NCBI RefSeq assembly: GCF_026571515.1
Contig: NW_026862168.1
Span: 62,001 to 126,000 of the forward strand
Source of the DNA: Ruditapes philippinarum
Lineage: Eukaryota
Reading direction: 5' to 3'
Length of the DNA stretch: 64,000 bases
Position numbers: made by a program. Positions 18,001 through 24,000 of this stretch are shown in pieces. The number at the start of each line of letters is the position of its first letter. Position 1 is the first letter of the stretch.

Positions 18001-21000
18001 ATTTACGATGTATTCATTCTTGCTAGCAAGCGCATGCGTATATGCGAAGTTTAACGCGTAGGTATAAACTACGATTTTATCAATGAACTGTTATTTTTTG
18101 TTTTCTTTAAAGGAATGTAGAGTCTATTATTTCATGAAAATGAACGATTTGGAAATTTCAAAGCATTTAAACAACTTTGCAAAACACTATTTTAATGATG
18201 TGTAGTCGGAATGTAACGCTACTGCAGAATGAAGAACTAGTTTCTATAGCGGTTTTTATCCGGGAGTGGATGTTGTTCGGTAATGCATTAAACCTGTATC
18301 TTTTCTGAGATATAGCTTATAACTCTGTATACATTGCAAGCAATGTATACAATAAAGATGAGGCTAATTGCATCACATTTGGGAAACGGTATATCAGCAA
18401 GTTTTCATACATCTATATGTCTGTTTCTAACCAATATCCCTGGGTGAGAAATTTTTGTATTGCTTGACCCAAAGTGATTTTAAGAAATATATTTATAGAT
18501 GTCGTGTTGATGTTACTGGAGATATTTGGCTTAATTATTGGCTAAGTTGTATCTAGACCTCTTCATGCAGTCAAAGCGATCGCGTACGGTCTAGCCATAC
18601 CAGGGCTATATGAATTTCTCGTTCTTGAGGTTTTTGTAGGCTGTGTATTATAATTGAGCTGAAAAGAAGAAAAGTGAAACTATTAATAGCATATGTAAAA
18701 CATCAAAAAATACCATCACATAATTATTAAGAACTATTTCTATACGTTTTTAATTTTGCTTTCTCTTTCCATTAAAAAATCTAGAGCGAACTCTAATAAC
18801 TCTAACTATATTAAATGGACTTGTCCATCTTTGAATCTGGAAGGTACCATTTATCTTTTTAGGGAAATTTACTGACTGAACCCCATAATCGGACGGCATA
18901 TACGTGCTGACTAATCTTGCAGACAGTTGGTGAAGTTAGAATTTGTTAAATGAAAAGAATGATTTAAGAAATTTGTGAAATTTAGGTAGTAAAATTGTAA
19001 ACATTATATCAACTGGTGGGCATGCAAGTAGACTAAGCTGTGCTGTGTTAATGACCATATCCCAAAGTTTACTCCTCAACTTATTGGTTGTTATCGTGGG
19101 CTCATCTTGAGTAATTTGTCAACAAAAACAGTGATTTTAAAAATGCTTTATCACTGCGGTATACCGTACCCCGGATATTGCTCGATATTATGAGGACTTT
19201 CATCCCATTTCGCGACTTTGAACGGGGAACGAAGGTTAGTTCAGCGACGATATTTTCCAAACTAATGGCTATTTCATTTCTCTCAACGGGTTTTATATAT
19301 CTAGAGGTATTTCTGTAGCTCTAAAAGACGTAAAAGTATTACAGGTATTTGTAAAATTGATTAAACTACCCCTAAACGATCCGCTGCTCACTAGAAAATA
19401 CTGACCGCGATACTGTAGAATCGTTAGAAATTATTATATCACCAATATAAAAAAAATTGAATCGAGCATTTTTTTTATTCTCAATCCAAGTATGCCTTGT
19501 CCAAATTTCAGGCAAAAAGTGTGAAAGTACAAAAAGATACAGGCCAAAAAAGATACAAGAAAGTGTACCGAGTATTGATTTTAAGTGTACAGAGTATTGC
19601 AAAATAGCCCAACTTTAGTGTACAGAGTATTGCAAAACAATATGAGCACATTAGTATGGAAAATCGATATTTTTGTCTAATTTTCACGTCTGTTTATCGA
19701 TTCAATTTCATTTTTCTGATAATGTACTGTTTATATGATATTTATTCAAATATTTCAGATTCAACAATGCATTTTCAATTTTTCATTGTTATTCCTGTTC
19801 TTTTCCTACTGGCAAATGCAGAGATTTAATTTCCCATTTGATTGAAAATCACACTATGGATGAAATAAAGTGTGTGCAGGGTCGAAAGCAGGGTAGAACC
19901 ATCAAAATTGACGATAAAAAACTTTAAATACATGTCTCAAGAAACTTTGATAAAGAAGACCCATCTCTGAAAAGGACAAGAATAAAAAAACATATTTAGA
20001 TGACATTAATAATAGGTTTTTACAGGGCAAGTTTGACTTAAGAAACATATCGACGCACTTCATAAAATATTGGCCAGAGGGCTTATGCCGCCCAAGCATG
20101 CCGGTATCGTCTTAACCTTTTACTGCATGAGCATAATGCAAGTTCAAACTGCTATGAAACGATAAAAAATGCTTCAATACTGATCAAACTGGGCACAAAT
20201 GTTAGCTAGACCATAGCCTGTGGAATAGCATGCTCAATTTTAAATTTTCAGTTACCATGGCAACGGGGGGGGGGGGGCGTCTCAAAATTGCCAAAAATCT
20301 CTATTTTGCGTTGTTTTTCCCCATCAAAACTGATTTCAAGGTGCACCAACTTCTCAGTTGATTGAGATAAAGTCTAAGGTTTTCGGCGTTGATTACACGG
20401 TACCTTTAAATCGACCTGAGGCCATTTAGCCCCCCCCCCCCACAAGATCCAAGTCTTCTCGACGATTAGAGGGGCTGCTGCCCCACTTCAAACCCCCAAA
20501 CAGAAGGGTGCACATCCCCCCTGTGTAACCCCCTTGATATACTTTTTAATGGGGGTGGCGCCGAAAAAGTGATCGCTCTTTTGAACAACATTTCTCAAAC
20601 GAAAAAAACAGTGTTGGGGGCCTATATAGGAAACGCTGCGCTATTTTTACACTAGGCCTCAAAAGGGATGGGGATGTAAAGCTTTCAAAACACGCCTTTA
20701 TGAGGTAAAAGGTTATAAGGAACATAACCTTTTTATTGCATCTGCTGCCCTTTATCATAATCTTATCAAAATCCATTATTCGGTTTTTTTGAGCTGTACT
20801 TGCTCGGCAGTCATACGGAAACCTTTGCTAAGGCGTAACAAAATTTCACGTGCAGACGGTCTGCCGTTGCTAGAGTGCAGGTGCAAAATGCCCGAAAGTT
20901 ACCTTTATATGGATTTTTGGCATAGTAGGAAGTCGGTTGATATTAGATATTGGTACACTTGCTCAATACCGTCTAATATTGACAATCTTGAGGAAGTATT

Positions 21001-24000
21001 AATGCACTTTGGATGTTTTTTTTACTATTTAAAGTAAGATATGCAATAATTTTTAACAAATTCTGGAAAGGTTGATCCTTCGATAGCAACGAGAACATTT
21101 TAAACACAGAAAACTGAGATTTTTCACGAGCAGGAATGAAAATCTGGATTATTCGCAGATATTTCCAGTAAAGTACCTCCGAATTCTGCATATTCTGCAC
21201 ATATAGTGTAAATAAGTATACACAGTAAGAAATATTTAAAATTAAATGTGGTAAATACTTTGTGTTTACTGCTTGCATTTACTCTTTATTGATAACCAAT
21301 ACTCGTTACACTCAAAAGCAATACTCGTGACACCGGCGGGCAACTCCAAAGCAATACTCGGTACACTGACATGTGTATTTATTCTCAAAATGCACTGTCG
21401 TCTGAGGTTTTATTGTTGATTGAACATTTACAACATAAACATTATCATCATTATCACATTTCACTCGATTCAAGTTTTTCTTTTAAGGATGTATATGCAC
21501 AAAACATCAAAATTGACTGATCCGAGCTCATTTATCACGTGAGCAAAGAGTCGAATTTTACCTCCTAATTACATTTCAAAGCTATTTCTCAACATTTTTG
21601 GGGTTTCATTAACTAGAGAAATTATCGAAGTATTTGTATTTCTACAAAATTTATATCTAACCAATTCAAAATGACTAAATATCGTCACTTAACATACCTT
21701 CTTTCCTCGTTCAAAGTCGCGAAATGGGATGAAAGACCTCATAATATCGAGCAATATCCGGGGTACGGTATACCGCAGTGTTTATGCTCAGAAAACAAAA
21801 CCAATTTGTTATCAACGGAAGTAATCCGAAAATACAACATAAGCAAAGGTTTTTAATTTCACCTTGCGTAAAAGTGGTTTCAGTTACCTTTTAAATAAAT
21901 ATGCATTACGTCGTTTTACAAAACCGTTGATGACGGCGACGAAGGTGGTGATATATCAATTCCTAGTTCACTTAGGTCAATGTCCCAGAAACCACTAGGA
22001 ACCTTTTTCATTTGACCTTGAACTTGATTTGTTCCATTCACTTCCACCGAACTTTTAACGCTTGTATCTATGTCATTGTCAGTATTGTGAACGTCATATG
22101 CCTTTATATTTCTTAATTCGTTGTGTAAATTTTCCCATAAAGTCGAATTACTTATCCAAATCGGGGCATGTTTTGGACTTTTGGTTGCCTCCGAATTTGG
22201 TAAAATTTTATCCGAATCCGAGTTGACGTTCACTTCCGGTTCAATTTTAGACTGGTCTTCATGCCCATCCCATATAGGATCGATTTTTGATGGATCTATT
22301 TGTCCGTCCCATATTGGGTTACTTTCAGATGGTTGTACTTCTTGATGTTGAGACTGTATCCATAAGGACCCAGCCAAGGATCCGGAGTAGGTCGACTGAC
22401 TTCCTTGGTGCTGTATAGCTCGCTGAAACACCGAAACATGAACGCTCAAGCTCACTGTCTGTTTATTATATATAGTTAGTGCATTAAAAACTTAAAGAAA
22501 TAATCGTATGTGCGCCAGGTTCGTGCATTGACATTTGAAACGACTGATTTTGGTGTACAATTTTATTAATTCTAACAAAGTAACAAATATATAACAAATT
22601 TACAAAATGAGACCAATTATTTACGCTATATAAATTCTCAGACAGACGTTCTGATTGCCATAGTCGGTAATGATTGTCTGATATTAGTTTGTTTTCAAGC
22701 TTTGAAAGTAGCTCAAAATTGTCCGCTGTTCGACATTAAAACAGCTCAGAATTGCCGCCTGTTTGACACTTTATAGCGATGTATTAATACTATTATTTCA
22801 TTTTATCACATTGTATTGTTTCGTTCAATTTACAAATTTGTGCTTGGAATTCAATTGTGGCAGTGCAATGAAAAATACAATTATCTAATTCCACCACCGC
22901 TTTTTAACAAGTGTTATTTTGCAAAGCAAAGCTGTGCATGACTGATAACTGTGTTAGTCATAATATCCGGTCGACTTGTCCAGCCACTTCATGCTATTAG
23001 TATTTCCATTATTTGATGCTGTGCTTAAATGTCCATTACTCAATTTATGTTCCAGTCTAAATGTTTGTAAGAGTTGTCTTACTTTGATAATCCTTGCGCG
23101 CTTCCGGCGCTCGCGCACAATGCAGACGACAACAATCGTAACGACAACTGCTACAACAACAGCAACACAAGCGACGGATATTCCTACAATAGCACCGGTT
23201 GATAAGCATTCTGGCATGCTTTCATCAGTTCCATCCGGGCAGCTCGGATGTTGGTCGCATTGTAAAGAACGCCGTATGCAGTGTGAACTCGATTTGCATT
23301 GGAATTCATCTTGGGTGCATGGCGCTGTAAAGCAACAGTAATTTAAGTAATGTGCAGTTTAGTATATTTAGCAAGGATTTTTTATCGACGCTTGCGGACA
23401 CGTGAAAATATTTGACATGCGAGTTTTTAATGCGTGGGTATAATTGCGCAATCATGTGCGATGTAATTATATTACGTTTGTACAAGACAAATGATTTTTC
23501 TAGCGTCATTATTGGGTATGAATTAGTTTACTATAAATGGCAGTTTTAAATGGAATATGAGATTTTAATAAGTTAAACACAGCTATTATTTCAGGCAAGT
23601 TTTGATTGTAATGCAAATAGATATATATGTCTTACCGTCACTAAAAGCTGTTATCACAAGTTTCATTCCACTCCCGGAAATCAAGTCAGTATTGCTGACG
23701 AATCTCATTACGAAAAATCGACCGGAAGTCAAAATGTACTTCTTTTTTGGTTTCGTGCACACCGTCGCCGGCAAATCTAGAAAAATGAAATAATGTCGTG
23801 TAATATATGGTGAAACAAATAAAGCGCAAACAAGGCAAAAATATATAATGGACCACTTGACAGAATCAGTTAAACATTAACGATTTATTTTAAAAGATGG
23901 AAAGATAGGAGGGCTGTAAGACAAAGTTTATGTAGACATGAAATACTGCGGATTCTACATTTCATATGATTATATGAATTTCATGATTGATGTCACTCTG

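What the first reader, a model, noticed from the sequence alone, without database searches (positions are those of the whole stretch)
19152..21780. Transib/RAG-like transposon: CAC ends, 5-bp TSD, long TIRs
Seen: a 2.63-kb element with TIRs starting CACTGCG (5/7 match to the RSS heptamer CACAGTG), identical for 44 bp and similar to about 100 bp, with an exact 5-bp TSD (TTTAT). Known: CAC-initiated TIRs plus a 5-bp TSD characterise Transib and RAG/ProtoRAG transposons, whereas Chapaev has 3-4-bp and CACTA 2-3-bp TSDs. Inference: this is a non-autonomous member of that lineage. Its intact ends and TSD suggest a related autonomous partner may exist in this genome.
Basis: partly seen in the sequence, partly recalled or inferred. 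Interest (0 to 1): 0.75.

Follow-up and report, generated by a model that had tools for sequence, protein, structure and literature searches.

The report
Clam non-autonomous CAC-ended DNA transposon
A 2.6-kb defective cut-and-paste transposon in the Manila clam genome has ends and a 5-base target duplication that fit the Transib group best, but it lacks the extra end signals of RAG-like transposons, so it is an ordinary mobile-element relic rather than a strong lead on RAG origins.

Summary
Window 19152-21780 is a 2,629-bp element with ends 5'-CACTGCG...CGCAGTG-3'. Its inverted repeats are identical for 44 bp and match at 97 of 104 bp. It is flanked by an exact TTTAT duplication. Of 43 CAC...GTG pairs in the window, only this one has a 5-bp duplication; none arose in 100 shuffles.

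The host is Ruditapes philippinarum. The element encodes no transposase. It carries a nested TTAA-flanked MITE, co-linear 17-bp subterminal motif arrays at both ends, and a decayed C2H2 zinc-finger ORF. Four diverged relatives of that ORF exist elsewhere, so the family is multi-copy.

CAC ends plus a 5-bp duplication fit Transib best. However, the end differs from the protostome RAG-like consensus at 8 of 17 positions and lacks its A-rich block. It has no Transib/RSS-type nonamer. Its target is AT-rich, and Transib is very rare in molluscs. hAT5, which also makes 5-bp duplications, was overlooked but fits worse (third base C, not G).

No partner, other full copy or empty site could be examined. 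Interest is low.

The parts
19147..19151 (.). Left copy of the 5-bp target site duplication, TTTAT
   Evidence: Read directly. It is the only flank-repeat length from 2 to 10 bp that fits.
19152..21780 (+). Whole non-autonomous element: 2,629 bp, or 2,028 bp without the nested MITE and its 4-bp target copy
   Evidence: Bounded by the inverted repeats and the duplication. The longest stop-to-stop ORF is 135 aa, or 106 aa after removing the MITE. No transposase or RAG Pfam family was found in the 42 interior ORFs.
19152..19255 (+). Left terminal inverted repeat, 104 bp, starting CACTGCGGTATACC
   Evidence: 97 of 104 identical to the reverse complement of 21677-21780; positions 1-44 are identical. 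GC is 0.47 against 0.33 for the interior. CpG observed/expected is 1.73 against 0.95 for the window.
19451..19466 (+). Conserved island AAAAAATTGAATCGAG about 300 bp from the left end; its partner is at 21464-21479
   Evidence: 16 nt, 94% complementary (pair I14). It sits at offset 300 from the left end and 302 from the right end.
19562..19633 (+). Left array of three 17-bp subterminal motifs, AGTGTAC(A/C)GAGTATTG(C/A), at offsets 411, 433 and 466
   Evidence: All 5 window matches at <=3 mismatches lie inside the element, against 0.14 expected by chance.
19722..20112 (+). Decayed small ORF region with a C2H2-type zinc-finger pattern (CxxC-x12-H-x4-H). The ATG is at 19767. There is a frameshift after MHFQ and a stop at 19925-19927. 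It ends at the TAA inside the TTAA that received the MITE.
   Evidence: Sub-threshold Pfam C2H2 hits, best E 0.004. Relatives P0014/P0016/P0017/P0020 have E 6e-16 to 2e-5. They map to 19722-20112 in shifting frames.
20116..20712 (+). Nested 597-bp MITE with CC...GG termini, flanked by TTAA (20112-20115) and TTAT (20713-20716). It is piggyBac-type by target and termini.
   Evidence: 79.4% identical over 500 aligned columns to window 12096-12578 on the minus strand. Ends aligned; coordinates checked.
21296..21367 (-). Right array of subterminal motifs in inverted orientation, at offsets 414 and 469 from the right end. A weaker third copy lies at about 21318-21333 (offset about 447).
   Evidence: Co-linear with the left array at a +3 offset.
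21464..21479 (-). Right-hand partner of the conserved island (AAAAACTTGAATCGAG on the minus strand)
21677..21780 (-). Right terminal inverted repeat, 104 bp, ending ...GGTATACCGCAGTG
21781..21785 (.). Right copy of the target site duplication, TTTAT

Best explanation
This is one copy of a multi-copy family of non-autonomous cut-and-paste DNA transposons in the Manila clam, Ruditapes philippinarum. It inserted 130 bp downstream of the stop codon of a CUB/LDLa membrane-protein gene.

Shown: it has 104-bp inverted ends that begin CAC. It duplicated 5 bp of target (TTTAT). It encodes no transposase. It later received a TTAA-targeting MITE.

Inferred: it was moved in trans by a DDE transposase that nicks at the CAC ends and joins them to target phosphates staggered by 5 bp. 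That geometry is characteristic of the Transib superfamily, so a Transib-type enzyme is the most likely mobiliser, not a RAG1L/RAG2L (ProtoRAG-type) pair. The co-linear arrays of a 17-bp motif about 410-470 bp from each end, and a shared island about 300 bp in, are probably extra transposase-binding sites. The family now looks old and decayed.
For: Structure:
- CAC...GTG termini, 44 bp identical, 97 of 104 matching, exact TTTAT duplication.
- 1 of 43 CAC...GTG pairs in the window has a 5-bp duplication, and 0 of 100 shuffles gave one.

Literature:
- Transib elements have 5-bp duplications and CAC-initiated ends, and exist as non-autonomous copies (PMC1131882 passages).
- A functional Transib, Hztransib, has 'long TIRs' and a 5-bp duplication (PMC1852546 passages).
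- hAT ends always have G at the third base (PMC1131882, legend of Fig. S7). That counts against the other animal group with 5-bp duplications.
- AcademX (3-4 bp), AcademH (9-10 bp), Polinton (6 bp) and piggyBac (4 bp) have other duplication lengths (PMC10045372 passages).

Non-autonomy:
- No Pfam family reached its curated cut-off in any of the 42 interior ORFs of >=40 aa at E<=1.
- 6 of the 42 had sub-threshold hits; none was a transposase or RAG family.
- No ORF exceeds 106 aa after the MITE is removed.

Multi-copy family: four diverged relatives of the interior ORF come from four separate contigs of about 1 kb.

Subterminal motifs: all 5 window matches lie in the element against 0.14 expected, and they sit symmetrically at both ends.

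Host: 100% identity to R. philippinarum LOC132718160, and 98% to LOC132718166.
Against: - The heptamer CACTGCG matches the Transib consensus CACAATG at only 4 of 7 positions.
- No A-rich nonamer-like block exists at any of 7 spacer lengths tried: best 3 of 9, and the conserved AA is never present (against PMC1131882 passages).
- Transib and RAG prefer GC-rich targets. This target is TTTAT, though that is one site in a 33% GC genome.
- A mollusc-wide survey found 1 Transib among 14,275 DDE/D ORFs, while hAT was the second most common group (PMC10294476 passages).
- Canonical Transib transposases carry no domain beyond the core (PMC4411706 passages). If the decayed C2H2 ORF is a transposase remnant, it does not fit.
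- The duplication length rests on a single copy.
- No transposase of any kind is in the window: none among the 126 other ORFs of >=66 aa.
- The Repbase rule for filing non-autonomous elements could not be applied, because Repbase was not on hand. That rule asks for the same duplication length plus termini 1-11 aligning with <=1 mismatch (PMC4455052 passages).
Confidence: 0.5

Rival explanations
1. It belongs to a CACTA/Chapaev-like (CMC) lineage, or to an undescribed superfamily, whose transposase happens to make a 5-bp stagger. The CACTG start and the arrays of subterminal repeats are the working parts, as in En/Spm-type elements.
For: The end starts CACTG. Three short repeats sit near each end in inverted arrangement. 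Subterminal repeat arrays are a hallmark of CACTA elements (recalled, not from a call). Chapaev and Chapaev3 are placed within the Transib superfamily by one analysis, so the boundary is soft (PMC4411706 passages). CMC elements occur in all mollusc genomes surveyed (PMC10294476 passages).
Against: No 2-, 3- or 4-bp flank repeat abuts these ends; only 5 bp works. Duplication length is usually conserved within a superfamily (PMC10045372 passages).
Confidence: 0.25
2. It is a non-autonomous hAT5 element, from the hAT group that makes 5-bp instead of 8-bp duplications.
For: hAT5 has 5-bp duplications and occurs in invertebrates and fish (PMC12730594 and PMC9004415 passages). hAT is the second most abundant DDE group in molluscs. 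hAT elements commonly use subterminal repeats (abstract of PMC4763223 in the listing). The decayed internal ORF has a zinc finger, and hAT transposases start with a zinc finger (BED type; recalled).
Against: The third base of hAT ends is always G; here it is C (PMC1131882 Fig. S7 legend). The zinc-finger spacing is classical C2H2 (CxxC-x12-H-x4-H), and no BED Pfam family was hit. I did not see any hAT5 end sequence.
Confidence: 0.1
3. It is a non-autonomous derivative of a RAG-like (RAG1L-RAG2L, ProtoRAG-type) transposon. This is the more exciting half of the first reader's claim.
For: CAC start and a 5-bp duplication. RAG-like transposons with 5-bp duplications exist in bivalves, in oysters (PMC7204232 passages). 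The first four bases, CACT, match the protostome consensus.
Against: 8 of 17 mismatches to CACTWMCAAACKTYKBB, 5 of them within the first 11 bases. The conserved AAA at positions 8-10 is replaced by GTA, and there is no AAA in the left 104 bp. There are 8 of 13 mismatches to the conserved 13-bp element of the algal RAG-like transposon (against PMC9435367 passages). No RAG1, RAG2 or kelch Pfam hit was found in any of the 168 ORFs scanned (42 interior plus 126 other).
Confidence: 0.07
4. It is not a transposon: a chance inverted repeat or a local inverted duplication.
For: Only one full copy could be examined. No empty site was available.
Against: The ends match at 97 of 104 and stop exactly at a perfect 5-bp flank repeat. 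0 of 100 shuffles gave such a pair. Four diverged copies of the interior exist on separate contigs elsewhere.
Confidence: 0.01

Closest known systems
Non-autonomous Transib elements (Transib-N families) and Hztransib
   Same: CAC...GTG termini, a 5-bp target duplication, and no coding capacity in the non-autonomous forms. Hztransib is described as having long inverted repeats.
   Different: The heptamer matches at 4 of 7. There is no A-rich nonamer-like block and the target is AT-rich. The element has 17-bp subterminal motif arrays and a decayed zinc-finger ORF, which I did not see described for Transib.
Protostome RAG-like (RAGL-B/D) transposons of oysters and nemerteans; ProtoRAG
   Same: CAC start (CACT), a 5-bp duplication, and a bivalve host group.
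   Different: It lacks the conserved A-rich second block (AAA at positions 8-10), with 8 of 17 mismatches to the consensus. There are no RAG1L/RAG2L genes, and the inverted repeat is far longer than the 13-15-bp conserved core.
hAT5 (hAT group with 5-bp duplications)
   Same: A 5-bp duplication and animal hosts. hAT is abundant in molluscs.
   Different: The third terminal base is C, not G. The 104-bp inverted repeat is long for hAT (recalled).
CACTA/En-Spm, Chapaev, Chapaev3 (CMC)
   Same: CACTG start and arrays of short subterminal repeats near both ends (the CACTA features are recalled).
   Different: The duplication length is 5 bp, not 2-4 bp (family lengths are recalled or quoted from the finding).

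Membership tests
Transib superfamily (non-autonomous member) | 5-bp target site duplication | tested here: met
   TTTAT on both sides. It is the only fitting length from 2 to 10 bp, seen in one copy only.
Transib superfamily (non-autonomous member) | Termini 5'-CAC...GTG-3' (heptamer positions 1-3 invariant) | tested here: met
   CACTGCG / CGCAGTG. The criterion is from PMC1131882 passages.
Transib superfamily (non-autonomous member) | Second conserved block: an A-rich nonamer-like element about 12 or 23 bp from the heptamer, with AA at nonamer positions 5-6 | tested here: not met
   Spacers 11-13 and 21-24 were tried. The best match is 3 of 9 and AA never occurs at positions 5-6. The published consensus comes from insect families, so its reach to molluscs is unknown.
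Transib superfamily (non-autonomous member) | GC-rich target preference | tested here: inconclusive
   The target TTTAT has no G or C, but this is a single site in a 33% GC genome.
Transib superfamily (non-autonomous member) | An autonomous partner with the same ends encoding a RAG1-core-like DDE transposase | not testable with these tools
   No clam genome or eukaryotic contig collection was available. No transposase family was found among the 168 window ORFs scanned.
Transib superfamily (non-autonomous member) | Repbase filing rule: same duplication length and termini 1-11 aligning with <=1 mismatch to a classified element | not testable with these tools
   The rule is from PMC4455052 passages. 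Repbase/Dfam were not on hand. Against published consensus strings only, there are 3 of 7 (Transib heptamer) and 5 of 11 (protostome RAGL) mismatches.
RAG-like / ProtoRAG transposons | Terminal consensus with an A-rich block (protostome CACTWMCAAACKTYKBB, AAA at positions 8-10) | tested here: not met
   8 of 17 mismatches. Positions 8-10 are GTA.
RAG-like / ProtoRAG transposons | Convergent RAG1L and RAG2L genes between the ends, in the autonomous form | tested here: not met
   No RAG1/RAG2/kelch family was found in the 42 interior ORFs. This copy is non-autonomous, and a partner elsewhere could not be sought.
RAG-like / ProtoRAG transposons | 5-bp target duplication | tested here: met
hAT5 | 5-bp target duplication | tested here: met
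.
hAT5 | hAT-type termini with G at the third base | tested here: not met
   The third base is C. The criterion is from the PMC1131882 Fig. S7 legend.
CACTA / Chapaev (CMC) | Target duplication of 2-4 bp | tested here: not met
   No 2-, 3- or 4-bp flank repeat abuts the ends. The family lengths are recalled or quoted from the finding.
CACTA / Chapaev (CMC) | CACTA/CACTG-type termini with subterminal repeat arrays | tested here: met
   CACTG start. There are motif arrays at both ends. The criterion is recalled.
piggyBac-type MITE (the nested element at 20116-20712) | TTAA target duplication and 5'-CC...GG-3' termini | tested here: met
   The nested copy has TTAA/TTAT flanks. The sister copy at 12017-12638 has TTAA/TTAA. 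The termini are CCTTTT...AAAAGG in the nested copy and CCCTTT...AAAGGG in the sister. The criterion is from PMC10045372 passages. Kolobok also targets TTAA (recalled), so the assignment is by termini only.

The most novel reading that the evidence does not exclude
The element is the non-autonomous satellite of an undescribed clam lineage of Transib/RAG-related transposases. In that lineage only the CAC tip of the ancestral end signal survives. The second recognition element (the nonamer or A-rich TR2) has been replaced by a long CpG-rich inverted repeat plus arrays of a 17-bp subterminal motif, possibly read by an added C2H2 zinc finger whose decayed remnant sits in this copy. That would be a new mode of end recognition within the RAG/Transib family, in a phylum where a survey found 1 Transib among 14,275 DDE ORFs.
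Probability: 0.12. Interest if true: 0.5.

Novelty: new member of a known kind. Interest (0 to 1): 0.25.

Why it matters
If the Transib assignment holds, this would be one of very few Transib-type families documented in bivalves. Its ends would widen the known range of sequences such enzymes accept, which bears on how the RSS heptamer/nonamer arose.

As the evidence stands, it is a decayed, non-coding transposon copy just downstream of an ordinary gene. It is useful for repeat annotation of the Manila clam genome, but it is not a new lead on RAG origins.

The practical lesson is that CAC ends plus a 5-bp duplication in a single copy are suggestive of RAG-like ancestry but not sufficient. The RAG-like second end block can be checked directly, and here it fails.

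Tried and rejected
- Other copies in the window: none. The 23-base end string occurs only at the two ends. A blastn of the element against the window found only itself, its own repeats and the nested MITE's sister. The two 1.5-kb flanks have no informative paralogue, so no empty site was available.
- Scans of bacterial/archaeal genome contigs with two pieces of the end: 0 and 0 matches, as expected for clam DNA.
- RNA families and tRNAs: 0 Rfam matches at E<=0.1 in 18000-23000, and 0 tRNA genes in the window. The nested MITE is therefore not an obvious tRNA-derived SINE.
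- Protein search for longer relatives of the 62-aa zinc-finger ORF: 1 candidate, none scored.
- Solved structures searched by sequence with P0014: 0.
- PHROGs and NCBIfam on P0014 and P0016: nothing meaningful (best E 0.022; NCBIfam 0). The source's name 'phage anti-repressor protein' for P0014 is unsupported.
- ESM Atlas for the ORF and for P0014: only C2H2-like look-alikes, with recognition below the stated 2300 level.
- Structure prediction of P0014: the tool was not accepting jobs.
- Papers: Yuan & Wessler 2011 and Bao et al. 2009 were not held. The superfamily table of duplication lengths was therefore not seen. A full-text search for the 14-base end string found 0 papers. A search for Ruditapes plus Transib gave 1 unrelated paper. 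A search for clam repeat surveys gave nothing usable.
- Inverted-repeat symmetry as a test against RAG-like elements: rejected. One paper says subgroup I Transibs have asymmetric ends, while another reports symmetric ends around a pearl-oyster RAG-like element.

Full report
**Observation.**
- The element runs from 19152 (CACTGCGG...) to 21780 (...CCGCAGTG), 2,629 bp.
- The two ends are identical over positions 1-44 and match at 97 of 104 positions without gaps. The seven differences are at positions 45, 74, 79, 86, 87, 91 and 94.
- Past about 104 bp, identity falls to background.
- TTTAT sits at 19147-19151 and at 21781-21785. Of flank-repeat lengths 2-10 bp, only 5 fits.
- The 23-base end string occurs twice in the window (the two ends), against 0.00 expected.
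- Of 43 CAC...GTG pairs with near-identical 12-base termini in the window, only this one has a 5-bp flank repeat. None arose in 100 block shuffles. Identical 5-mers at this spacing occur at 119 of 61,361 positions.

The window contains no N.

**Host and setting.** A 405-aa ORF at 29487-30701 is 100% identical to Ruditapes philippinarum LOC132718160. The window is therefore Manila clam DNA, not human.

On the minus strand, just upstream of the element, lies LOC132718166 (P0013, 409 aa, CUB + LDLa + transmembrane). Its pieces map to 25597-25517, 24348-24082, 23789-23634, 23325-23083 and 22431-21919, and its stop codon is at 21916-21918. I examined this gene exon by exon and did not join exons into a spliced model.

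The right-hand duplication copy ends 130 bp downstream of the stop codon. An ATTAAA on the minus strand at 21857-21852 lies between the stop and the element, and there is no AATAAA there. Whether the element is inside the 3' UTR is untested.

**Anatomy.**
- No transposase. The longest stop-to-stop ORF is 135 aa, or 106 aa once the nested MITE is removed in silico. None of the 42 interior ORFs of >=40 aa reached a Pfam cut-off at E<=1. Six had sub-threshold hits, none to a transposase or RAG family. None of the 126 other window ORFs of >=66 aa hit a transposase either; those above cut-off were RING, LDLa (2), CUB (2) and APH.
- Nested MITE. A 597-bp MITE with CC...GG termini lies at 20116-20712, flanked by TTAA and TTAT. 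A sister copy at 12017-12638 (minus strand) is flanked by TTAA on both sides. The two are 79.4% identical over 500 aligned columns. TTAA targets and CC..GG ends are the piggyBac signature (PMC10045372 passages).
- Subterminal motifs. A 17-bp motif, AGTGTAC(A/C)GAGTATTGC, occurs at offsets 411, 433 and 466 from the left end. In inverted orientation it occurs at 414, about 447 (weak) and 469 from the right end. All 5 window matches at <=3 mismatches are in the element, against 0.14 expected.
- Conserved island. A further 16-bp island, AAAAA(A/C)TTGAATCGAG, sits at about 300 bp from both ends.
- Possible shared motif. The hexamer TATTGC, present in the motif and at positions 25-30 of each inverted repeat, is about 6-fold denser in the element (8 sites, 3.0 per kb) than elsewhere (0.52 per kb). 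This is a weak hint that one DNA-binding domain reads both.
- Base composition. The inverted repeats are GC-richer (0.47 and 0.43) than the interior (0.33). They are also CpG-rich, with observed/expected 1.73 and 1.65 against 0.95 for the window.

**An unexpected interior feature.** The ORF at 19739-19924 carries a CxxC-x12-H-x4-H pattern with sub-threshold C2H2 Pfam hits (best E 0.004, below cut-off).

An exhaustive HMMER search of 1.84 billion representatives gave 12 hits at E<=0.001. Four of them are short proteins: P0014 (106 aa, 86% identical, E 5.8e-16), P0016 (68 aa, 84%), P0017 (69 aa, 72%) and P0020 (56 aa, 71%). The rest are multi-finger proteins at 25-37% identity. The four are singletons from four unnamed contigs of 931-1,135 bp.

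They map to 19722-20112 of the element in shifting frames. P0014 spans both window ORFs (19781-19912 and 19957-20112) and stops at the same TAA, which lies inside the TTAA later hit by the MITE.

Hence the window copy is a frameshifted, stop-bearing version of a stretch that is repeated elsewhere. This is the only evidence obtainable here that the element belongs to a multi-copy family, and it shows that the copies are well diverged. Whether the small zinc-finger ORF was ever functional (for example as a transposase first exon) is unknown. Two of the four relatives (P0017, P0020) have lost the cysteines.

**Classification.**

*For Transib.* CAC ends and 5-bp duplications are its hallmarks (PMC1131882 passages). 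Non-autonomous forms are normal. The active Hztransib has long inverted repeats and a 5-bp duplication (PMC1852546 passages).

*Against other groups.*
- hAT5 also makes 5-bp duplications (PMC12730594 and PMC9004415 passages), but hAT ends always have G at the third base (PMC1131882 Fig. S7 legend). Here it is C.
- Ginger2 makes 4-5 bp, but its TGT...ACA ends (recalled) do not fit.
- AcademX (3-4), AcademH (9-10), Polinton (6) and piggyBac (4) have other lengths.
- CACTA and Chapaev share the CAC(TG) start and, by recall, subterminal repeats. However, no 2-4-bp duplication fits here.

*Against a confident Transib call.*
- The heptamer matches CACAATG at 4 of 7.
- No A-rich nonamer-like block exists at spacers 11-13 or 21-24.
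- The target is AT-only, whereas Transib prefers GC-rich sites.
- A mollusc survey found 1 Transib among 14,275 DDE/D ORFs (PMC10294476 passages).
- Canonical Transib transposases have no extra domain (PMC4411706 passages).

*Against the RAG-like reading specifically.* The protostome RAG-like consensus CACTWMCAAACKTYKBB, with its conserved AAA at positions 8-10 (PMC7204232 passages), is missed at 8 of 17 positions. Those three bases are GTA here.

I saw only text passages and figure legends of these papers. I did not see the end alignments in their figures or supplements, which could hold a closer match.

**Mechanism (inferred).** A trans-acting DDE transposase bound the CAC-tipped inverted repeats, and probably the subterminal motif arrays. 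It excised the element and joined its 3' ends to target phosphates 5 bp apart. Gap repair then produced TTTAT on both sides. Only the end structure and the duplication are shown. The enzyme's identity and the role of the motifs are inferred.

**Age and activity.** The evidence leans towards an old family:
- a MITE has since inserted, and one base of its own duplication has mutated;
- the MITE is 79% identical to its sister copy;
- the interior ORF is broken;
- the known relatives are 14-29% diverged at protein level.

The perfect duplication and the CpG-rich ends are compatible with either view.

**What stayed unchecked.**
- The clam genome, and therefore other copies, duplication lengths, any partner and any empty site.
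- Repbase and Dfam.
- The contigs behind P0014, P0016, P0017 and P0020 (metagenome and viral contig collections closed).
- The fold of the zinc-finger ORF (tool not ready).
- The superfamily tables in two papers that were not held.

**Verdict.** This is a decayed non-autonomous DNA transposon of the Manila clam. It is best filed provisionally as Transib-like (confidence 0.5), and it is not RAG-like. It is a new member of a known kind and of low interest.

Noticed in passing
window 20116-20712 and 12017-12638 (minus strand): Two copies of a MITE of about 600 bp with TTAA targets and CC...GG termini (piggyBac-type). They are 79% identical. One is nested inside the element; the other lies beside a RING-finger exon (12702-12989). 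The sister copy carries about 40 extra bases after its 5' repeat.
   Followed up: partly
window 19722-20112 (+): A decayed small ORF with a C2H2-type zinc-finger pattern. It has four diverged relatives (P0014, P0016, P0017, P0020) on unnamed contigs of about 1 kb. One source calls P0014 a 'phage anti-repressor protein', which no library search supports.
   Followed up: partly
window 21919-25597 and 35904-38107 (minus strand): Two tandem paralogous genes for CUB + LDLa + transmembrane proteins. The first is LOC132718166. The second matches it at 30-42% identity in the CUB and LDLa exons.
   Followed up: partly
window 4675-4974, 7801-8805 and 9228-10048: Satellite-like tandem arrays with periods of about 166-167 bp (two blocks of one family, 85-90% identical) and about 162 bp (a separate, more diverged array).
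   Followed up: no
window 51317-51653: A 22-bp tandem repeat, TTCAACTTCATGAATTCACGAT (about 8 copies), followed by an inverted copy of the array. This forms a palindromic block that produces many spurious CAC...GTG pairs with 4-bp flank matches.
   Followed up: no
window 5189-5567, 37414-37650, 56263-56421: Three further short inverted-repeat structures, MITE- or foldback-like: 72-bp arms at 94%, a 237-bp palindrome at 86%, and a 159-bp palindrome at 89%. None has CAC ends or an evident 5-bp duplication.
   Followed up: partly
window 55336-55797 (+), 57999-58463 (-), 49289-49657 (+), 61284-61553 (-): Exons of at least two aminoglycoside-phosphotransferase-like (APH family) genes in opposite orientation. 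One exon is above the Pfam cut-off.
   Followed up: no
window 2453-2980: A direct tandem duplication of a 265-bp unit at 98% identity.
   Followed up: no
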